Shown piece by piece: positions 4,372-58,215 of a stretch of 64,000 nt of DNA (within the stretch, counting starts at the first letter, position 1; each line of letters starts with the position of its first letter). Below the pieces are notes generated by a model that was not told the origin of the DNA, did not search any database, and saw only the letters and a list, made by a program, of their open reading frames with translations. The stretch covers positions 73,346,001 to 73,410,000 of the forward strand of contig NC_043008.1 in the NCBI RefSeq assembly GCF_006345805.1, written 5' to 3'. Source of the DNA: Octopus sinensis (lineage: Eukaryota). Both the position numbers and the translations under genes were made by a program.

Positions 4372-5019
4372 AAGTTCTCCAAGAGAACAAAAAAGAGAAC
4401 AAAAAAGGAAAAAGAAAAGAATAAAATAAAACAGGTCATAAACCTTTGGTATGATAACAAGAAATTTCACCGTGTAATATTTGTTGACGCCACACCTAAG
4501 AACGAATTAAGTAAGGCATTCAAGAAAATCCTGCGCACAACTTGCCTTAAGATCAAAGTTGTAGAAAAGACAGGTAGGACTATCAAATCTGTATTATGTA
4601 GATCATATCCATTTGATGGAATCACGTGTCAAAATTATTGTGCAGTATGTTCTACAAACCCATATGTGAACTGCAAAACCAAGAGCACTGTATACCAGAT
4701 TAAGTGCCAAGAAGGAGTGTGCACAACTAACCCAGAGTCATACATTGGTGAAACTTCTAGGAGTATCAATGATAGGTTCAAAGAACACCTGGACAACTAC
4801 ATTGAAAAGAAACCAAACTCTATCTTCTATCAGCATGCTGTAGACTGCCACAAGAGCTTTTTAGGGAGACTTAAGTTAAACATCCTATCCACACATCCCA
4901 CTGATGCAATGCTGAGACAAGTCACTGAAGCTGTCTGTATACAAGAATACAAACCCACTCTCAACTGTAAATCCGAATGGGGTAACATCCAGATTTCACT
5001 CAAGAGTACCCTTCTATAG
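4372..5019 (+). pseudogene. 3' part of a PLE: Zn-linker plus GIY-YIG endonuclease (Neptune/Nematis-like)
   Basis: Open frame from 4372: VIFVDATP...KIKVVEKTG.TIK..L, CxxxCxxC, VYQIKC, YIGETSRS..RFKEH, RQVTEAV, LN.KSEW. Confidence 0.85.
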
Positions 5020-19569: not shown

Positions 19570-20400
19570 TAATAATAAAACAGTAAATAAATGTACATTA
19601 TTTACATTTGACGGATGTTTGTTGTTAACACAATGTTTCGGCTGATATACCCTCCAGCCTTCTTCAGGTGTCTTGGGGAAATTTCGAACCTGGGCTCTCA
19701 TTCCTAAGGTATTCATCGATGTTATTATTATCATTATTATTATTACTGTTCAGGTCACTACTTGGAATCGAGCTCAGAATCTTGGTATTAGTCGCCCGTG
19801 CTCTTAACCACTACGCCATATGCCCGTGGGCAATTACGGAGTGAAATTTAGGGCTTATAAATCTGATATTTTTCTATCCTTCCTTAATACCGGTTCCCAT
19901 ATGCTGCTCATATCTGCACTAAGTCTGCTTAGGAGGTTGTGTCCTAGCATATATGCTGCTTCTTTTAGTTTTCGTATTTTCCAGTGGTGTTCTCTGTCTA
20001 TTATTTTAACTTCATCCCACAGGAGGAGGTGGTCTCCATTTTCCCATACATGAGCAGCTATACCTAATTTATCAATATCTCCTCGTGTCACAGCTTTGCG
20101 ATGTTTGTCTACCCTTATTTTGAGGGGGCGGCATGTTTCGCCTTTGTATAACCTACCGTAGCTGCATGGGATGGAGTACACGCAGTCTTTGGTCATATTC
20201 TCTTCTATTGGTGGTTTTACCTGAAGGAGATATTTGCGAAGTGTATTACTCTTGAATACTGTCCTGATGTCACATAGGGTAGACAGACTGTGGACAGTTT
20301 ATAGTCCTCAACCTTACTCTTCTTCATAATTGGAGTGGATAGTATACTTTTGGGGTGGTTGTTGCTTAACAGATCGTTATTGAGCTTGATCATTTCTTCG
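19570..20400 (-). pseudogene. 3' part of a Penelope/Poseidon-like PLE with GIY-YIG ORF (19855-20196) and pseudo-LTR
   Basis: CVYSIPCS.GRLYKGETCRPLKIRV..H, IAAHVW, RKLKEA; upstream VCLPYV. Confidence 0.85.
19628..19671 (-). ncRNA. Degenerate hammerhead motif in the pseudo-LTR downstream of a Penelope endonuclease
   Basis: Minus strand ACAC-CTGAAGA-AGGC...GCC-GAAAC-ATT-GTGT (GTT>ATT, consistent with CpG decay). Confidence 0.65.
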
Positions 20401-32199: not shown

Positions 32200-32657
32200 A
32201 TTTTAATGAGGTTTATTAGAATTTAAATAATAAACTATCATTTATAAAATAAATATGTTTTCTTAAACTTATGGGTAAAATTCATATTAAAATTAGAGGT
32301 CAAATTCAACAATTTAAGTCTAGATGTAAGTATCAAAAATAGTTCATCCAGACATAAATTGCACCTATCATTACCAAAGGAGTAAGGTTTTGCATATCCA
32401 ATTATCGAACATTTAATTTCATAATCAAATGTTCTTTTCCTTCAGTCCCAATATATATTTACTAAGTTTAGTAGATTCACTTCTTTTAATACGAAAATCT
32501 GAACAATGATTATTTTTGTGATTTAAATTTATTAGAAGTACATCCAATGTAATAAACCGTTTCACCTTTAGTTCTTATCTCAGGTCTATATACTAAATTC
32601 TTTTCTAGACACAACCCATTTAGCCGACATTTAGCTATATCTCTACAATTACAATTA

Positions 32658-32695
<38 letters not shown>

Positions 32696-34760
32696 CATCA
32701 TCTTCGTCATCATTATCATTATTGCTACTACTACTGCTACAACCATTATCACCATCATTTCTACCCCTATTATCAGGTTCATTGATATTAATTTCATTAT
32801 CATTATTATCATTATCATAATTATTGCTATTATCATTATATTAATATTACTATAGGTTCGGTAAACCCTATGATCAAGTAAATAATATAAAGTATTACGT
32901 TTATTATTGATGTTACTATTACTATTCATATTGTTGTTAATAACATCATTATGTTGAGGTCCAATGCCATGTTCGTTTGTTGTAAAAGGATTACTACTAG
33001 TAGAACTGTTACCATTATAAAATTCATTAAACTTAATTTTATTATGTGCAGCAATAATCTGTGCTAAACTTCTACATGTAGAATACGAGATTCTAATTGT
33101 TCTTTTCTTAAATTTACTATGATATTTATGGCTATTTTCAAAATGTTTGTTAACCAAGCTATACAATCTTATTACTATTACTTTTTAACTTATTGCTTGT
33201 TGCTAGAATAACTATGTTTATTCATATCATTTTTATCCAAGCTATTATTAGTCTGATCATATTTATTTTTTATATTTATCTATTTTTTATTTTCATTTAT
33301 ATTTCTGTTTTTATTTTCTGTATTATAAAAATGTTTACGAAACCAAATTTTCTTATTCCTCTTTTTATCATTATAATTTTTATAATTGAAAGTTGCAAAC
33401 ATGGTGTTCCCAATTGAAGGTGTTTCAGTATTATTTACATTAGGTATATACTTAATTTTCTCTTTGTATCCAGCTCTCATGAGAGCATAGTTATAATGAT
33501 CACAATTATTAAGGAAAATTGTCTCATTAGATGATAATTTGGATAATCTTATGGATATATTCTTTACTAAAGATTTACTTTTATTCCTTGGTTGATCAGG
33601 ATAATAGCTTATATACCTTAAATTTTCATTAGTCTTATGGAAAAGAACAAAAATCCCTGTATGCAAATCCAATGTTACACCCAGAAAATTAGCTACAGTA
33701 AACTCATTTACAATACTAATAGAAAGGCCATATCTAGCGAAAAATGCATGAAGATCCTTTTTATAAATATTTAACTGTCTTAAGTTACATTTTCTCACAA
33801 TAAATAGAACATCATCACGATAAATACAACTTTTAAGGTTAACAAATTCATGGTGTAGTTCACTTAAAAGATATATACCTACAAGGTCAGTAACTTGAGT
33901 GGAGTCACTTGAAACCCATTGTTATATCAAAATGGTTATATCTATGTTTTTAACCTAATAGCTGCCCAAAATCTCAGTGATAGATTTACGAGCACCTACG
34001 ATAATATCAATTTCTTTCCAAGAAAGATTAGAATGATGCATTCCGAAAATTAAAGCCTTATTTAAAATTGTAGGGTTAATGGAAGATAACATCTACCTAT
34101 ATCAAATCGAATAAACTTTTGCCTAACTCTTTCCTCGATTGATCTAAACCAATCGATGACCATAGAAGAACCATCCCAAAGTTCCAACGTAACAGGATCC
34201 TTGATTACTGGTATGTACTTTTTCCAAGATGAATTTACTAATCCTTCCAATGTCTAAACTAGATGGACATATCAAATGGACTAAAGGTGAAGTTATAAAG
34301 TTGGGTTTATGATCTTTCAATGTAATCCTTGGTGATCTTGGGTGGTATGGTTCAGTACTGTCATCCAAATTCATCTCTTCCGTAATTCTTTTCGTTTGTC
34401 AGTTAATTTTCCTGCGAGTTTGAATGTTAGTTTTCTTATAATTTTTCATTATTTCCTTTCTTAGTTGTATAAGTATTACAATCCATATTGTAAATATTTC
34501 CAGTTTTCTCCACCTGTACCAAAATTCCTTTACTCCTTTTAAAGGAGTTTGTTAATATATTAATTTCCTGCAAGTTCTTATTACTTCTCAGTGGGTATTT
34601 TAAAAATTTTATATCTCGAATCTTTTCCCAGATGTCCTTTTCAAAATCAGCAAGAAGTGCATAAAATGGGGCAATTCTTCTTGTACGGAATATCTTTTTG
34701 ACTTCTTTGAGTTGATCTGTAATATTATCATTTGATTCATGATCAAAATGAAATGCTCTC
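32200..34760 (-). pseudogene. Naiad-clade Penelope-like retroelement, frameshifted RT-thumb-GIY-YIG
   Basis: ITLKDHKPNF..P.V.LI.P...DIGRISK.IL, VIDWF, KFIRFDI, YRDD, NFLGVTLDL, SIRLSKLSSNETIF, TIRISYST, CNCR...C.LNGLCL..NLVY, YYIGCT...FK. Confidence 0.85.
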
Positions 34761-37230: not shown

Positions 37231-37602
37231 TTAATATTCAACTCACCTGAGCTCATGCACCTTCTTATCAGGAGTTCCTCAACGTTGAATTTGTCTAAAT
37301 CTAGCTCTAACCATATTTCTCATACAGCTGAATCAACTGAAGGCTGATACTGTTAGTTCACTGATGATCACATCTTATTCTTTTGTTTATATTTTTCACT
37401 ACTATTTACTTATTAAAACTATTTCTATTTTGGCTGGCTTTATTACATTCTAGCTAGATCTATTTGTGAAATCAGATTTGTGATGTTTGGATGTTATCAA
37501 GGATGTCTCCTCTGTTTTCTAACTTTATAAATTATCGTTATAAGGCTTAGTGTTTGTTGATATATATATATATATATATAAAAACATGATGCGAAGGATT
37601 CA

Positions 37603-37680
37603 GCGGTACATATGTTTCGGGCCTTTATTAGACAGATTTATAACAATGCATAATGTATGTCTGTGGCCTTCTTCAGCCGC
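37603..37680 (-). ncRNA. Minimal type-I hammerhead ribozyme (inverted copy of 40088-40165)
   Basis: Reverse complement of the same motif. Confidence 0.85.
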
Positions 37681-40087
37681 GCACCACAGCTTCCACAAGG
37701 ACATGTGTTACATCAAAAATTCTTGGTTGGGGATGCAAATCCTCTCATTCACGTACGACATAATGCGGCAGCAGCATAGAGTTGAAGCGTCCATCTCTTT
37801 CTTCTCTCATGTAGAATGAGGAAAATTGGATGTTGAGGTAATGTAAATAAATAAATACATATATAGAGGTGAAGATGGAGGGGGCGAGAGTTCGGGACGA
37901 GGGATGAAAAATGTATAAAAAGTGTAAGTATAGAATAATATAAAAATGTAGAGGATAAAGGTGTAAGTAGATGTAAGGGGGTATATAGAAATATAAAGTA
38001 AAAATAGAAATAGAAATACAAGTAAAAAAACCTGATAAAAACATGATAAAAGTGTAAAAGAATGTGAAGATAAGGGATGTATAGAGGTTATGGACCAAGC
38101 ATGGTGGTCAGGAGATTGATAAAATTTAGTTGTAGAATTGTCAGTACATCAACAGTTTCGTCTGGGGACTTAATGCGTTGTAAATCAAGCTATGAGCATT
38201 TAATCTGGTTCTTGAATTAAATGGACTTCTAGTACATACATATCATCATGGATATACAAACCCCCAAAATTTGTATATATAGGGGGAAAATGGCAGGGAA
38301 ACCTATATGCACGTACACCCCAACCCCCCACACACACACACACATGCACATTTACATATATATGTATATGTAACATACGTACACGTATGTGCACATACAT
38401 ACGCACACACACACGTGTGTGCGTATGTATGTGCCAGTTTTCCCCCTGCTGTTTTCCCCCTATATATACAATTTTTGTCTCCCATGTATGACTTCTTTTC
38501 CTAAATATTTCTTCTCCTACACCCATATCCTCCCTATGTAGTCTCTTTAATCCCCTATATCTTATACCCTTTCACATTTCTAACTCGATGTTGAACGCAC
38601 AACCGCCAACTCCACTTCCCACCCTTCCAATTTTCAGTTCCCCCCGCCTGCCCTACGTTAAACACACACCTCTAACTTTCAACCACCTTCATCTCATGTT
38701 AAACTTTACAAAATTATATTTTTATCTTATTTTATTTTTATTTTTATTTTTTCTTTTATTTTTACTTTTATCCTACTTCCATTTATTTTATATTTTTATT
38801 TTAATTTTATTTTTACTTTTATTCTACTTCCATTTATTCTCATTTTCATTTTCATCCCTTACCTTAACTCTTATAATTTTTATAATTCTTATACTTCATT
38901 CTAACATTGTATTTCTTATTTTATACTGTATTTTTTATTTCTAATCTTTACCCTTACCCTCATTCTTACCCCTAACTTATCGCTTTACACCTCTATATAT
39001 GTTTATTTACTTACCTATGGATCCACCTTTTGAATATACGAGCGTCCGCGTACGTGTGTATACGCATACATACATATGCACGCGCATATATATGTACATG
39101 CATACTTCGATATCTTATAGCTATATCCATGTGCGCGTGTCTCTCTGTGTGTGTATATGAGTGTATATGTGCACGCACATACGGACACACAGCCGTGTGT
39201 GCGTGCGCGTATTGACATGAGTACGGGATTCTTTACATACGTTCTTATACACATCCTTTAATATCTTATACCTGGACCTAGAGGCGTGGGCATATACGTG
39301 TGTGTATGGAGTGATGGGCGCGCGTATATACATGTGAGCGTGTACGCGCGTAATGTCCGTGTATATATGCGGATATTCTGTTGTATGTATGTGTGTGTAC
39401 GCGCGTGCGTGTGGGTGCGTGTGTGTTTATGTACGTGTTTACATGCGAGTGCGTGTGTATGCTTATAGGCTTGGAGGCGTATATGTACGCGTGTATGTGG
39501 GTGTATATATCCATGATGATATGTATGTACTAGAAGTCCATTTAATTCAAGGAACCAGATTAAATGCTCATCAGCTCTGATTTACAACGCATTAAGTCCC
39601 CAGACGAAACTGTTGATGTACTGACAATTCTACAACTAAATTTTATCAATCTCCTGACCACCATGCTTGGTCCATAACCTCTATACATCCCTTATCTTTA
39701 CATTCTTTTACACTTTTATCATGTTTTTATCAGGTTTTTTTACTTTTATTTCTATTTCTATTTTTACTTTATATTTCTTTATACCCCCTTTACATCTACT
39801 TACAACCCTTTATCCTCTACATTTTTATATTATTCTATACTTACACTTTTTATACATTTTTTATCCCTCGTCCCGAACTCTCGCCCCTCCATCTTCACCT
39901 CTATATATGTATTTATTTATTTACATTACCTCAACATCCAATTTTCCTCATTCTACATTGAGAGAAGAAAGAGATGGACGCTTCAACTCTATGCTGCTGC
40001 CGCATTATGTCGTACGTGAATGAGAGGATTTGCATCCCCAACCAAGAATTTTTGATGTAACACATGTCCTTGTGGAAGCTGTGGTGC

Positions 40088-40165
40088 GCGGCTGAAGAAG
40101 GCCACAGACATACATTATGCATTGTTATAAATCTGTCTAATAAAGGCCCGAAACATATGTACCGC
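40088..40165 (+). ncRNA. Minimal type-I hammerhead ribozyme, core intact
   Basis: GCGG-CTGAAGA-AGGCC...GGCCC-GAAAC-ATAT-GTA-CCGC; stem I GCGG/CCGC; palindromic stem III ACATATGT; GUA cleavage triplet. Confidence 0.85.
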
Positions 40166-40273
40166 TGAATCCTTCGCATCATGTTTTTATTTTTATTTTG
40201 ATCAATTTACTCCACCACCTACACCACCAAACCGTATACACAGGTGCTTATAATTATCAAGTACTCACCCCGA

Positions 40274-50450: not shown

Positions 50451-50961
50451 CAAGTATGTATATATTGCATGCTTCATAGAGTATTGAGGGTTTAGACTCT
50501 TATTTCTTGCAATGTATTTAGTTTGAACTTCATAGATTTTACATTCAAACCCCACTGGAGGTATGTTTTATCTCCCTGGTTCCAAAATCTAAATAAATTC
50601 ATGTTTCATTTTTCTGCTCTGTATTAAATATCTTTAAGATGATTTTGTATACTTTTCTTTTATAAATATATATTTTGAGTAAGTATTGTATGTATTTATA
50701 TTCTTAGTTCAAACACAATCCATCAGGTTTACTTTGTGTGTTACCTTCCTGTGGTAAATTATAAGACTGTAATTTGATCACGTATTGAGACAGAATATCT
50801 TATGTTATTCATTCAACCTATTTACATTCTACTTTAGTTTTTTCTATTTTGGTGATCAGTAAAATATATTAGTACTTATAGAGGCATATTTGTTAGAATT
50901 TTAAACAAGATGCTTTGCAATATTTGAATCATTTCTTTACATTTTGAGCTGCCAAGCAGGT

Positions 50962-51555
50962 GTGACAAATTTTCTGTATTGACTCAAAGAAAATAGTGTC
51001 TGGTAAAAAGTACTGGAAGGAAGGCAATAGGGAAACATCTTCTTTTACTCTTGTATTCAAATTCTATGACAAGCATCTAGCGGTTATCAAAGAAGCTGCC
51101 AGGAGTTATTCAGTGAAGTGATGGCGCAGGAAAGAAAAAATATACAAATTAAAAAAATACCAGTAATATATCAGGGTTGGTTGAATTAACTATGTCTACA
51201 TGCTATTATTACATGAAAATATCAGATTGCTGCTCTAATCTTTATTGAAGAATGTTTATAATTGTAATATATGATAATAAACATAACGAAGCAAATAGAT
51301 CTGTGGATAGTACAATAAGTCAATACAAGAACACTTACCCCTCACATTATACATAACTATTTACACAACATATAAGTCTAAAAGTAATATCCAGAAACAC
51401 AATGAATAGAGTGGAATTGAACATCTAACACTGTACCCTGCAATGTGAATGACAAATATACAACCACATGGACTCTTTATCATGTCTTTCAATACATGGA
51501 AATAAATATATATATAAACATGACTACGAAGTGCCAAGACGGAATAATTCACACC
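50962..51555 (+). repeat. 594-bp segment duplicated at 54672-55265 (offset 3710)
   Basis: Apparently identical from GTGACAAATTTTCTG to GGAATAATTCACACC in both places; both copies give the same minus-strand ORF text in the track. Confidence 0.93.
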
Positions 51556-52394: not shown

Positions 52395-52417
52395 TCACAC
52401 ACACACATATATATATA

Positions 52418-52818
52418 TTCTTTTACTTGTTTCAGTCACTTGACTTCGACCATGTTGGAGCATCCCCTTAATGGGTGTTAGCCGAAGAAGTCGACCCCGG
52501 GCTTAGCTTATTCTTTGTAAGCCTAGTACTTATTCTATCGGTCACTTTTGCTGAACAGTTACGGGGAGATAAACACACCAGCATCGGTTGTCAAGCGATG
52601 GCAGGGGGACAAACACAAGCACACACGCAGAAATACATACGTACATACGTATATATACGATGACCTTCTTCCAGTTTCCGTTTACAAAATCCAATCACGA
52701 GGCTTTGGTCGGCCCGAGGGTATAGTAGAAAACACTTGCACTAGGTGTGACGCACTGGGACTGATCCCGGAACCATGTGGTTGGTAAGCAAGCTACTTAC
52801 CATTCAACCACTCCTGCG

Positions 52819-52822: not shown

Positions 52823-52859
<37 letters not shown>

Positions 52860-53528
52860 CTGTCATGCCTTTGGGTGTCAGAAGTGAAAGTAGAGAAATC
52901 TGACGTCAGACGTCAACTTCGTGTATTTACGTCGTCTTTCGTTTATTTACGCCGTTTATTTACGTACCACTGAAATGCAAGTAAAAGCTTGTATGTATGT
53001 ATGTATGTATGTATATATATATACATACATACACACATATATATAATATACATGTATATATACATATATATATATATTTAATACATACATATATATAATA
53101 TATACATGTATTTTTACCGCCTTTAGTCGTACAAATCGACCCCAGAACTTATTCTATCGGTCTTTTTTCTTAACCACTATACATTATATACATACATACA
53201 AATAGATAGATAGATACACACACACACATATAATAGATATAAAATGTGTACGTGTGTACATTTTTCAGAAAAAAATTCATACATTTTAAATATCAATAGC
53301 ATTTCTCTTATTTTTTACATGAAGTTTTCGAAAAATGAATTTAGAATGTAAAAATCAAATATATCAAATTAATAAACGCAAATTATTTAGAATGTAAAAA
53401 TCAAATATATCAAATTAATAAACGCAAATTATTTTCAAATATCATTTTCAACGGTGAGATTATCAAAATATAAACTTGAAGTTAAGTTTAAAAATAATGC
53501 GATACTCATTCTGTCTTGATACTTATGC

Positions 53529-54317
53529 TCAAATACATGGATATAGCTGTCGAATTTGTTCTATCAACTTCCCGAATATATCATCCTTAAATTCATAGCG
53601 CCACATGAATTCGATGAGATGGGTCTGAAGTAAATTTCTGGCTGTTCCACATTCTCTCCTATTTCGAGTCTTTACGTGTTTCCATAAACATTCTATGTGG
53701 TTGGTTGTGGCAAATGTTACCGGATCAACAAAATTTATAGAATGATTCACGGTCAAATGTCTGTATCCTAGCTGACTGAGTGTATTATACGAACGCCAAA
53801 GGTCGGATATTATTGTTGTACCAGGCAATATACGCTCGCGTATAATCTGTAATAGAGTGTCCGCTGTTCGATTTTCAACTGCCACTAAAATACATCTTCT
53901 ACTATCTCTTTCTAATGCACTAAACACCCATTGCGTTTTAACCCGATGGCCAACATGATATTTTCTCTTAACAAACGCAGTTTCATCTATTTCAACGATT
54001 CTATTGGGTCCTCCCAGTTTAATATTCTGTGCAACATAATATTCTGCACATACATCGCGGCAAAAATTCCTCCAATCGGTTACCGCTACATTTGCTAAAT
54101 GACATTCCTGTCCTATTCCTTTTGCTAAATCTTCTTTGGCCCAGTAAAACAAAATATCTATGATCTGTTGACACTTCAATTTGCTATTTTCTAAAAATGT
54201 TCCTTTTCTAATTGACACGGATTTTCTACAAGGTCTTCCACACGACCATATTATTTCATCAGATATACTTTTTTTCGTTACTTCTCTCATGGTAGCTCCA
54301 CACGATGTACATATTTT
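53529..54317 (-). CDS. Merlin/IS1595 (ISXO2-like) DDE transposase, C-terminal 262 aa of an interrupted gene
   Basis: Zn-ribbon CTSCG...WSCGRPC, LGGPNRIVEIDET, QWVFSALER, ILPGTTIISDLWRSY, HLTVNHS.NFVDP, TTNHIECLW: typical DDE_Tnp_IS1595 motifs with no stops. The first 7 residues of the track ORF come from the inserted TIR. Confidence 0.93.
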   Translation of the reverse strand, partial: KICTSCGATMREVTKKSISDEIIWSCGRPCRKSVSIRKGTFLENSKLKCQQIIDILFYWAKEDLAKGIGQECHLANVAVTDWRNFCRDVCAEYYVAQNIKLGGPNRIVEIDETAFVKRKYHVGHRVKTQWVFSALERDSRRCILVAVENRTADTLLQIIRERILPGTTIISDLWRSYNTLSQLGYRHLTVNHSINFVDPVTFATTNHIECLWKHVKTRNRRECGTARNLLQTHLIEFMWRYEFKDDIFGKLIEQIRQLYPCI

Positions 54318-55733
54318 GGTTAATATAGGGCGTAACAAATATCAGAAAATCAAAAAAAAAATGTGTGTAATAGGTGTAAAACAACTTCCTATGAACGATT
54401 ATGAAAAAAAAAATTCGCGCACGCGAAAGGGGGGTGGGGGAGAGGCCTCGGAAAATTCACATCGGGAAGTTCCGAAAGCGTCTGAGGAGCTGACCCGGGC
54501 ACCAAAACAAAAAAAAAATAGTGTAATATGTGTAAAACAACTTCCTATGAACGATTATGAAAAAAAAAATGCGCTCTCGCGAAAGAGGGGTGGGGGAGAG
54601 GCCTCGGAATATTTATATCGGGAATTTCCGAAAGCGTCTGAACCGGGCACAAAAACAAAAACAAAAACAGCGTGACAAATTTTCTGTATTGACTCAAAGA
54701 AAATAGTGTCTGGTAAAAAGTACTGGAAGGAAGGCAATAGGGAAACATCTTCTTTTACTCTTGTATTCAAATTCTATGACAAGCATCTAGCGGTTATCAA
54801 AGAAGCTGCCAGGAGTTATTCAGTGAAGTGATGGCGCAGGAAAGAAAAAATATACAAATTAAAAAAATACCAGTAATATATCAGGGTTGGTTGAATTAAC
54901 TATGTCTACATGCTATTATTACATGAAAATATCAGATTGCTGCTCTAATCTTTATTGAAGAATGTTTATAATTGTAATATATGATAATAAACATAACGAA
55001 GCAAATAGATCTGTGGATAGTACAATAAGTCAATACAAGAACACTTACCCCTCACATTATACATAACTATTTACACAACATATAAGTCTAAAAGTAATAT
55101 CCAGAAACACAATGAATAGAGTGGAATTGAACATCTAACACTGTACCCTGCAATGTGAATGACAAATATACAACCACATGGACTCTTTATCATGTCTTTC
55201 AATACATGGAAATAAATATATATATAAACATGACTACGAAGTGCCAAGACGGAATAATTCACACCTTGCTCTAAACGACTATCATGAAAAAAATGCGCGC
55301 TCGCGAAAGGGGGGTGGGGGAGAGGCTTCGGAAATTTCACATCTTCAGTCCACGGCCTTTAAACTAAGAAAAAATAGTGTAATTGGTGTAAAACTACTTG
55401 TTCTAAACGAGTATCAAGAACACACACTCACACATGAATCATAAACTCCGTATTTCGCAAAAAAAATAATAAAGAGAAGAAATTTTTTTGTCATATTCGT
55501 TTAGAGCAAGTTGTTTTACACATATTACACTATTTTTTTTTTGTTTTGGTGCCCGGGTCAGCTCCTCAGACGCTTTCGGAACTTCCCGATGTGAATTTTC
55601 CGAGGCCTCTCCCCCACCCCCCTTTCGCGTGCGCAAATTTTTTTTTTCATATTCGTTCATAGGAAGTTGTTTTACACCTATTACACACATTTTTTTTTTG
55701 ATTTTCTGATATTTGTTACGCCCTATATTAACC
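54318..55733. mobile_element. Non-autonomous TIR element (Merlin-type) inserted in the transposase gene
   Basis: About 226-bp near-perfect TIRs beginning GGTTAATATAGGGCGTAAC; 8-bp TSD CATATTTT at 54310-54317 and 55734-55741; subterminal repeats CGCGAAAGGGGGGTGGGGGAGAGG. Confidence 0.92.
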
Positions 55734-55741
55734 CATATTTT

Positions 55742-55858
55742 CTGGGTATTCAAAAGGCCATGTCTCTTAAGCCAATTAATGCTATCTGCTGTTGTAGCAG
55801 TGGAGACAGCAATATCGCGGTGACTAATTCCTCTTAAACTTGGATATGCAAAAGCCAT
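55742..55858 (-). CDS. N-terminal 39 aa of the same Merlin transposase (MAFAYPSLRG...NWLKRHGLLNTQ)
   Basis: Joins in frame (…NTQ-KI-CTSCG) to 54317 once the insert and one TSD copy are removed; WL..HGLL precedes the Zn ribbon, as is usual in this family. Confidence 0.85.
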
Positions 55859-55996
55859 ATTAAAAATTGTGGTGGTCAGTGGTCATTCTGATTGGTGTAT
55901 GTAATCGCGGTGATGGTCATGGGGGTTCATTTGTGCAGATTTTGGTGTGATTTCTTTTTTAAAAACAATAATGAATAATGCAAGAATAAATATATT

Positions 55997-56969
55997 CAAA
56001 AAACTACGGAGAAAATACAAATTTATACATAAATTATTAGAGAGTTATCCACTATGTGGATAACTCTAGTGCTAAAAATAGCTCCGAAGCAACCACAGAG
56101 GATCTGTTTCCAACTAGAATCGACATACATTTAACGGAAGGAAAGTGAAATACAACGAATAAAATAGATTGACTCTATACAATTGTTTCATTACTAATGT
56201 AATATGTAGTTTTAAATCTTCGGTAGAGTTTGTCAGAAATGCAATTAATTAGATCGATTCGAGCGTCAAAAACACGAGCGGTCCAACCAATTACATTTTT
56301 AGTTATGTCTCAAATTCCGCGCCAAAAGCATGCCTAGACTCCATTGGAAACGTATGCCGCATCAAATAAAATATTAACTGCCGCATAGTTAAATTTATAA
56401 AATTATAAATGAGGGTGAAAAATCGATATTAATTTAATAATACCATTAATTTAACACCAAGTGGCTTAGCACAAAAAACTACGGAGAAAATACAAATTTA
56501 TACATAAATTATTAGAGAGTTATCCACTATGTGGATAACTCTAGTGCTAAAAATAATGGTATTATTAAATTAATATCGATTTTTCACCCTCATTTATAAT
56601 TTTATAAATTTAACTATGCGGCAGTTAATATTTTATTTGATGCGGCATACGTTTCCAATGGAGTCTAGGCATGCTTTTGGCGCGGAATTTGAGACATAAC
56701 TAAAAATGTAATTGGTTGGACCGCTCGTGTTTTTGACGCTCGAATCGATCTAATTAATTGCATTTCTGACAAACTCTACCGAAGATTTAAAACTACATAT
56801 TACATTAGTAATGAAACAATTGTATAGAGTCAATCTATTTTATTCGTTGTATTTCACTTTCCTTCCGTTAAATGTATGTCGATTCTAGTGGAAACAGATC
56901 CTCTGTGGTTGCTTCGGAGCTATTTTTAGCACTAGAGTTATCCACATAGTGGATAACTCTCTAATAATT

Positions 56970-56978
<9 letters not shown>
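55997..56978. mobile_element. Pseudo-LTR fold-back: arm ~55997-56446, partial direct repeat 56472-56552, inverted arm ~56555-56978; HHR-like motifs at 56173-56228 (-) and 56774-56829 (+)
   Basis: Near-perfect ~420-bp inverted repeat; CTCTA-CCGAAGA...GAAAC-AATT-GTA-TAGAG; internal hairpin AGAGTTATCCAC-TAT-GTGGATAACTCT. Confidence 0.85.
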
Positions 56979-57031
<53 letters not shown>

Positions 57032-57929: not shown

Positions 57930-58180
57930 GTCATCGTATAGATACGTATGTACGTATGTATTTCTGCGTGTGTGCTTGTGTTTGTCCCCCTGCCATCGCT
58001 TGACAACCGATGCTGGTGTGTTTATGTCCCCGTAACTGTTCGGCAAAAGTGACCGATAGAATAAGTACTAGGCTTACAAAGAATAAGCTAAGCCCTGGGG
58101 TCAACTTCTTCGGCTAACACCCATTAAGGCGATGCTCCAGCATGGTCAAAGTCAAGTGACTGAAACAAGTAAAAGAATAT
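57930..58180 (+). mobile_element. SINE family A 3' half; inverted duplicate of the 52418 copy
   Basis: Shares private variants with 52418-52664. Confidence 0.85.
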
Positions 58181-58215
58181 ATATATATGTGTGTGTGTAT
58201 ATATGTATTCGTTCA

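What the first reader, a model, noticed from the sequence alone, without database searches (positions are those of the whole stretch)
53529..55858. Otherwise intact 301-aa Merlin transposase knocked out by a Merlin-type MITE
Seen: removing 54318-55741 fuses a 39-aa N-terminus in frame to the 262-aa DDE region with no stops, and the insert has GG-ended TIRs and an 8-bp TSD. Known: Merlin/IS1595 elements start with GG and make 8-9-bp TSDs. Inference: a recently active Merlin family whose non-autonomous partner inserted into a transposase gene; precise excision would restore it.
Basis: partly seen in the sequence, partly recalled or inferred. Interest (0 to 1): 0.72.

Follow-up and report, generated by a model that had tools for sequence, protein, structure and literature searches.

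The report
One Merlin family jumped into another
A non-coding jumping-DNA element of one Merlin family sits inside the transposase gene of a second, different Merlin family, carries a copy of nearby host DNA likely picked up during break repair, and interrupts a gene copy that was likely already stranded as half of a mirror-image element, so it is a mostly ordinary nested insertion within an unusual family.

Summary
A 1416-bp element (54318-55733; GG ends; 8-bp TSD CATATTTT) splits a 301-codon IS1595/Merlin transposase, and uninterrupted copies elsewhere differ by 2-4 residues. The interpretation needs correcting. The insert is not this transposase's partner: its ends are 96% identical to 2904-bp coding elements of a second Merlin family (B), whose protein is 32% identical to the host's (A). 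A's ends are unrelated. The insert is a deletion derivative of a ~1.9-kb family (about 300 copies, 624-bp TIRs), larger than a typical MITE. It holds a 594-bp exact copy of single-copy DNA 3.7 kb away, which fits a Pack-TIR; read contigs neither confirm nor refute this. The host copy is not otherwise intact: one end is missing, 66 bp upstream of the ATG are deleted, and a Gly kept in 116 of 119 homologues is Ser. Excision would not revive an element. The more unusual point is that four young family-A copies are 3.3-3.5-kb whole-element palindromes with head-to-head transposase genes and TSDs, and the window copy is one arm cut at the apex. The scan noted palindromic Merlins before in another cephalopod genome (e1-10314763).

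The parts
52856..55997 (-). Family-A Merlin element, one arm only (interrupted by the insert). Terminus GGCACTGTCATGCC at 52856, next to a (TA)n run; no second terminus
   Evidence: (no family-A DNA in the 20 kb after or 10 kb before the window)
53529..54317 (-). 3' part of the family-A transposase ORF (residues 40-301 and stop); near-invariant acidic residues D150, D211, E248, the inferred DDE triad
   Evidence: D150 117 of 118, D211 115 of 119, E248 118 of 118 homologues
53919..53921 (-). Private Gly172Ser change in the W-V-F-G motif
   Evidence: Gly in 116 of 119 homologues; private to the window copy; one search lists the other base at 53921 in 3 of 4 runs
54310..54317 (.). Left copy of the 8-bp TSD CATATTTT
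54318..55733 (.). Non-autonomous family-B Merlin element (1416 bp), a deletion derivative of a 1931-bp consensus
54318..54673 (+). Outer part of the left TIR (consensus 1-357), two 156-bp subrepeats
54672..55265 (+). 594-bp segment 100% identical to window 50962-51555; replaces 16 bp of the TIR, with 2-bp and 1-bp microhomology at its ends
55266..55484 (+). Remainder of the left TIR (to consensus 594), then an internal deletion of about 1.09 kb (core and inner right TIR lost)
55483..55733 (-). Right TIR, terminal 251 bp (consensus 1681-1931)
55734..55741 (.). Right copy of the 8-bp TSD CATATTTT
55742..55858 (-). First 39 codons of the family-A transposase, from the ATG
55869..55870 (.). Site of a 66-bp deletion in the upstream region, 11 bp from the ATG; other copies hold this sequence
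55980..55997 (.). Apex of the family-A palindrome: the arm, a 4-nt loop and the first 5 nt of the mirror arm, where this copy ends
55997..56986 (.). Unrelated abundant repeat (~490-bp unit arrays, self-inverted), entered mid-unit; joined to the Merlin arm, likely by a deletion
50962..51555 (+). Single-copy host DNA, the likely donor of the captured segment; no long ORF
   Evidence: (two full matches in the genome, the other two 69-71% over <190 bp)

Best explanation
A non-coding element of Merlin family B sits at codon 39/40 of a family-A Merlin transposase between 8-bp target duplications, and was likely moved there by a family-B transposase acting in trans. Shown: the insertion, the TSD, the B identity of the insert, the frame disruption, and the host copy's other defects. 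Inferred: (1) the host copy descends from a family-A palindrome of about 3.3 kb and lost its mirror arm in a deletion running into a neighbouring repeat; (2) after landing, the insert lost about 1.1 kb internally and, at a break in its repetitive left TIR, copied 594 bp from 3.7 kb away by microhomology-guided gap filling, as described for single-copy Pack-TIRs; (3) the target choice was chance, not regulation of family A.
For: Insert ends are 96% identical over 356 bp to three 2904-bp elements with exact 8-bp TSDs and an IS1595-domain ORF. There are 607 exact copies of the terminal 15-mer against 0 for the control. 28 of 36 two-ended copies have an exact 8-bp TSD, 2 more have one mismatch, and none has 9 bp. 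15 near-full-length copies are 0.3-1.5% from their consensus. Family A has other ends and a protein 32% identical to B's. Nine other 301-aa ORFs occur among 19 family-A loci, five within 2-4 residues. The captured segment is absent from the other 29 copies compared, is essentially single-copy, lies under 5 kb from its donor and has 1-2-bp microhomology, as reported for Pack-TIRs (PMC8277862, passages). The window copy ends with the loop form found only in palindrome-derived copies, not in older ones.
Against: No fully intact autonomous B copy was found. The three two-ended 2904-bp copies read GTG where 12 of 15 copies with that region read ATG, and one of the three has a 3' frameshift. The closest ATG copy (315 aa) has a single, internally deleted end. 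Only 40 of 320 candidates were scored. In read contigs of four runs, none breaks at the start of the 594-bp segment, as a duplication should cause; two break exactly at its end; no listed contig bridges the insertion junctions. So the capture may be an assembly or haplotype mosaic. The order of events is not shown. Transposase activity was not tested.
Confidence: 0.85

Rival explanations
1. One reading: the insert is the non-autonomous partner of the interrupted family-A transposase, which is otherwise functional and would be revived by excision.
For: Both have GG ends and mostly 8-bp TSDs. Both are young: the window's A copy is 4-8 substitutions from most of the closest young copies.
Against: The ends share 5 of 15 terminal bases and have no BLAST hit better than E 0.29. 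Coding family-B elements carry the insert's ends. The host copy has one end, a 66-bp upstream deletion and Gly172Ser.
Confidence: 0.05
2. The nested insertion is real, but the 594-bp duplicate is an assembly artefact, for example a mosaic with a haplotype in which the donor is joined directly to the insert's TIR by a 3.7-kb deletion.
For: The two copies are 100% identical, while one other sample differs at 6 of 594 sites. Contigs break exactly at the segment's end in 2 of 4 runs but at its start in 0 of 4.
Against: The TIR resumes only 16 bp after the point where it was left, with microhomology at both joints, which suits a repair event better than a chimeric join. Short-read contig building can drop low-depth links into very high-copy repeats (general knowledge, recalled).
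Confidence: 0.2
3. The insert is a hAT, P or Mutator/Foldback element that merely shares the 8-bp TSD or the long modular TIRs.
For: Long TIRs built of 156-bp subrepeats resemble Foldback-like elements such as Galileo (PMC3573991, passages). 8-bp TSDs also occur in hAT and P (recalled).
Against: The same ends enclose an IS1595-domain ORF in three TSD-flanked copies, and related ends (GGTTAAACTAAAGCG, GGTTAATATCTAG) enclose related Merlin ORFs.
Confidence: 0.02
4. Family-B elements target other Merlin elements, as interference between families.
For: Besides the window, 1 of 29 other insert flanks holds a Merlin-type transposase relic within 400 bp, and 1 holds a family-A end fragment. One B coding copy abuts an A copy (L141).
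Against: 27 of 29 flanks show no Merlin sequence. The TSD sequences are merely AT-rich. The sample is small and no formal null was run.
Confidence: 0.08

Closest known systems
Merlin superfamily (Feschotte 2004, recalled; features as summarised in PMC8101967: abstract, Introduction and passages read)
   Same: DDE_Tnp_IS1595 domain, 5'-GG ends, 8- or 9-bp TSDs, tandem repeats inside elements, several divergent families in one genome.
   Different: TIRs of 624 bp (non-autonomous B) and about 717 bp (coding B) exceed the 24-462 bp quoted there. Family-A copies that are whole-element palindromes with two transposase genes are not mentioned (0 hits for 'palindrom', 'nested', 'two transposase').
Single-copy Pack-TIRs of animals (Tan et al. 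2021, PMC8277862; abstract and passages)
   Same: Single-copy capture, donor under 5 kb away, microhomology of about 2 bp, small loss of element sequence at the joint.
   Different: The word Merlin does not occur in that paper's main text (supplements not read). The captured DNA here shows no long ORF, and the capture lies inside a TIR.
Galileo / Foldback-like elements with extending TIRs (Marzo et al. 2013, PMC3573991; passages)
   Same: Long TIRs with internal tandem repeats; TIR growth by recruiting internal sequence through repair between arms; conversion between arms proposed.
   Different: P superfamily, 7-bp TSD, TIRs up to about 1.25 kb, and the longest TIRs are in non-coding copies. 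In family A the inverted arm takes in the whole transposase gene.
Recently active Merlin in Octopus vulgaris (PMC13282606; passages and one supplement row)
   Same: Reports 18 Merlin consensus families, 2 of them recently active with 11 insertions. The top named homologues of the host protein are Octopus proteins.
   Different: Counts only; no structure, nesting or palindromes described. Whether its families are A or B could not be checked.

Membership tests
Merlin (host, family A) | DDE_Tnp_IS1595 domain with DDE triad | tested here: met
   Pfam 66.7-67.8 bits; D150, D211, E248 present
Merlin (host, family A) | TIRs with 5'-GG | tested here: met
   Family ends GGCACTGTCATGCC; the window copy keeps only one
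Merlin (host, family A) | 8- or 9-bp TSD | tested here: met
   Of 19 two-ended copies: 12 exact 8 bp, 1 exact 9 bp, 2 with one mismatch, 4 without; not testable for the one-ended window copy
Merlin (insert, family B) | 5'-GG TIRs | tested here: met
Merlin (insert, family B) | 8- or 9-bp TSD | tested here: met
   28 of 36 exact 8 bp (two share flanks), 2 with one mismatch, 1 of 7 bp, 5 without; the 36 came from the first 100 of 607 listed ends
Merlin (insert, family B) | Cognate IS1595-domain transposase inside the same ends | tested here: met
   Three 2904-bp copies; Pfam 56.6 bits
Merlin (insert, family B) | TIR length within the reported 24-462 bp | tested here: not met
   624 bp in the 1931-bp form, about 717 bp in the coding form; a descriptive range, not a strict criterion
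Non-autonomous partner of family A | Ends shared with family A | tested here: not met
   5 of 15 terminal bases, best BLAST E 0.29
MITE | Small size, usually under about 800 bp (recalled) | tested here: not met
   1416 bp here, 1931-bp consensus; 2 of 33 non-coding copies were under 1 kb
MITE | Non-coding, high copy, homogeneous | tested here: met
   607 ends; 0.3-1.5% from consensus; open frames of 80 codons or more only in the TIR repeats
Single-copy Pack-TIR | Non-element segment from a nearby donor with microhomology | tested here: met
   594 bp, 100% identical, donor 3.7 kb away, 2- and 1-bp microhomology
Single-copy Pack-TIR | Duplication exists on one DNA molecule | tested here: inconclusive
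   contig break at the end in 2 of 4 runs, at the start in 0 of 4
Active transposon | Transposase expressed and catalytically active | not testable with these tools
   No run on record as RNA; no assay

The most novel reading that the evidence does not exclude
The young family-A Merlin moves as a 3.3-kb perfect palindrome with two head-to-head transposase genes. It arose when the element lost its 5' end and folded back at a built-in 4-bp hairpin, and its arms are re-copied or converted from each other within each element, so a one-ended copy like the window's can rebuild its missing end from itself. The window would then show a half-palindrome later hit by a second Merlin family and by a local capture event.
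Probability: 0.45. Interest if true: 0.55.

Novelty: new variant of a known kind. Interest (0 to 1): 0.33.

Why it matters
Nested transposon insertions are commonplace, and this one has no evident consequence, since other intact family-A frames exist. The value is threefold. It defines two young Merlin families, with candidate transposases and cognate ends, in a superfamily for which I recall no transposition assay. It adds a probable Merlin case to animal Pack-TIRs. It shows TIR extension carried to its limit: whole-element palindromes that keep TSDs and share variants between arms, which offers a tractable test of fold-back end rebuilding and of hairpin-RNA self-silencing.

Tried and rejected
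Partner-of-family-A reading: rejected. hAT or Mutator identity of the insert: rejected. The idea that each copy captures different flanking DNA: rejected; most copies share one ~690-bp core at 97-100%. The core's origin was not found; the 40 scored of 331 candidates were all near-identical matches. Second end of the window's A copy: not found in the window, the 20 kb after or the 10 kb before. Twenty further Merlin-like loci were checked for the insert's ends; one (L074) was closely and one (L071) distantly related. Empty-site alleles: not testable, because only contigs were laid, uninterrupted paralogues mimic an empty site and most rows were not shown. No RNA holder listed. The 104-167-aa frames in the TIR repeats were taken as chance, not searched. 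No host gene was recognised among frames of 110 aa or more in the window (by inspection only). Scan look-ups by place and by sequence returned nothing. Searches for printed palindromic Merlins (listings only, apart from papers cited) gave none; the library lacks most subscription journals and Repbase.

Full report
Observation. An element of 1416 bp spans 54318-55733, begins GGTTAATATAGGGCG at both ends, has 251 terminal bases 97.2% complementary, and is flanked by CATATTTT on both sides. Removing it with one TSD copy gives a 301-codon minus-strand frame without stops. The 262-aa part matches Pfam DDE_Tnp_IS1595. The top named homologues are Octopus proteins, so the genome is probably an octopus; that is inference. 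Among 19 other family loci fetched from the own genome, nine distinct uninterrupted 301-aa frames have the same N-terminus, five within 2-4 residues.

What the insert is. Its terminal 15-mer occurs 607 times in the genome, against 0 for the reversed control, so there are about 300 elements. Of 36 two-ended copies taken from the first 100 listed ends, 28 have an exact 8-bp TSD (two share flanks), 2 have one mismatch, 1 has 7 bp and 5 have none. The common form is about 1.93 kb with 624-bp TIRs built of 156-bp subrepeats, and 15 such copies lie 0.3-1.5% from their consensus. Three 2904-bp copies with exact TSDs, 99.6% alike, carry the same ends (96% over 356 bp) around an IS1595-domain frame. 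That protein (family B) is 32% identical to the interrupted one (family A). Family A ends begin GGCACTGTCATGCC and show no significant similarity to the insert. So the insert is a Merlin, but a non-autonomous member of another family, and large for a MITE. Against a simple picture, no intact autonomous B copy turned up. The three full-length copies read GTG where 12 of 15 copies with that region read ATG, one has a 3' frameshift, and the nearest ATG copy (315 aa) has one damaged end. Only 40 of 320 candidates were scored.

Bases 54672-55265 are a 594-bp, 100% identical copy of 50962-51555, which is otherwise single-copy and absent from the 29 other family copies compared. It replaces 16 bp inside the left TIR, with 2- and 1-bp microhomology. 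The copy has also lost about 1.09 kb internally. This fits single-copy Pack-TIRs, for which Tan et al. report donors mostly within 5 kb among proximal cases, a median microhomology of 2 bp and gap filling at breaks inside the element (PMC8277862, abstract and passages). Read support is mixed. In contigs of four public runs, the segment lies in one longer contig each; the contig ends exactly at the segment's last base in 2 of 4 runs and breaks at its first base in none; one run differs at 6 of 594 sites. An assembly mosaic is not excluded (about 20%).

State of the host copy. It keeps D150, D211 and E248 but has Ser at 172, where 116 of 119 homologues have Gly; the change is private to this copy. 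It lacks 66 bp located 11 bp upstream of the ATG and has only the terminus at 52856. At 55997 it joins the middle of a unit of an unrelated abundant repeat, and no second end lies within the window, 20 kb after or 10 kb before. Precise excision would restore a frame, not a mobile element; with the TSD left behind, the frame stops after 41 residues.

The host family. Older copies are 1.6-1.9 kb with short TIRs. Four young copies are whole-element palindromes of 3336, 3371, 3367 and 3463 bp, each with two head-to-head transposase genes and an exact TSD of 8, 8, 8 and 9 bp; a fifth is partial. The apex hairpin occurs at 12 sites, including copies that keep only part of the mirror arm. It sits at a 4-bp inverted repeat already present in the older copies, which suits fold-back priming at a break (PMC7999016, passages; the repeats tested there were 42-229 bp, far longer). 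Variants that mark an element appear in both of its arms: one in L112 alone, three in L149 alone, one in L112 and L147, one in L112, L113 and L147. This suggests arm-to-arm copying. Against it: arms of L147 and L149 still differ at 12 and 11 sites, one variant is shared by single arms of two elements, only 1 of 8 arms has an unbroken 301-aa frame (some breaks may be sequencing indels), and assembly of palindromes can homogenise arms. The window copy ends in the flipped loop plus five bases of the mirror arm, so it is most simply one arm of such a palindrome.

Mechanism and order. Shown: insertion, TSD, family identity and the defects. Inferred: family-B transposase acting in trans; loss of the mirror arm by deletion; capture and internal deletion after insertion. 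The order of the insertion and the arm loss is unknown. Targeting of Merlin by Merlin is weakly hinted (2 of 29 other flanks hold Merlin sequence) and not established.

Comparison. Both families meet the Merlin criteria given in PMC8101967 (Introduction and passages), with TIRs above the 24-462 bp quoted. TIR extension by recruiting internal sequence is described for Galileo (PMC3573991, passages). Recently active Merlins are already counted in Octopus vulgaris (PMC13282606, passages and one supplement row). My searches listed no paper on two-gene palindromic Merlins, within a library that lacks many journals. An unreviewed note of this scan reports the same kind of palindrome in another cephalopod genome (e1-10314763); I had found the palindromes before that look-up.

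Verdict. The local capture is a probable new example of a known process. The palindromic host family is the part worth following. Interest 0.33.

Noticed in passing
L112 482-3817, L113 422-3792, L147 579-3945, L149 583-4045: Whole-element palindromic family-A Merlins with two head-to-head transposase genes, exact TSDs and variants shared between arms.
   Followed up: yes
L114 580-5033 (G000:C15:13637379-13641832): A 4454-bp family-A element with an internal tandem duplication of about 2.1 kb holding two gene copies, inside one 8-bp TSD.
   Followed up: partly
L075-L077: Three 99.6% identical family-B elements share GTG in place of the start codon yet have fresh TSDs; each also has an internal ~375-bp palindrome upstream of the gene and a TIR that overlaps the gene's 3' end.
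   Followed up: partly
window 55997-56986: Abundant self-inverted repeat with ~490-bp unit arrays and a perfect palindrome of about 27 bp in each unit (1891 candidates); ends in (TA)n; class not determined.
   Followed up: partly
L060, L062, L063: Another Merlin family (291-294-aa frames) with inverted arms of 1.3-1.5 kb or more, made of ~316-bp tandem units in two of the three; TIR extension seems general among Merlins of this genome.
   Followed up: no
L055-L057: Three copies of a 305-aa Merlin frame (43% identical to family A) with identical first 50 residues, each beside a divergent 222-aa frame; no inverted ends found within 6.5 kb.
   Followed up: no
L141 473-2867; L025 1684-2654: A family-B coding copy directly abuts a family-A copy; another insert copy lies within 400 bp of a third Merlin-type transposase relic.
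   Followed up: partly
window 50960-50975: The donor segment begins with a stretch resembling bases 14-24 of the coding family-B end; may be chance.
   Followed up: no
window 37572-38266 and 39496-40196: A 700-bp inverted pair, 97.6% identical, about 1.2 kb apart; probably another long-TIR element.
   Followed up: no
window 52397-52664 and 57930-58198: Two inverted, 97% identical copies of a SINE-like repeat flank the whole Merlin locus 5.3 kb apart.
   Followed up: no
window 4372-5019, 19855-20298, 32510-33921: Frames that look like decayed Penelope-type (reverse transcriptase / GIY-YIG) elements; label by eye, not searched.
   Followed up: no
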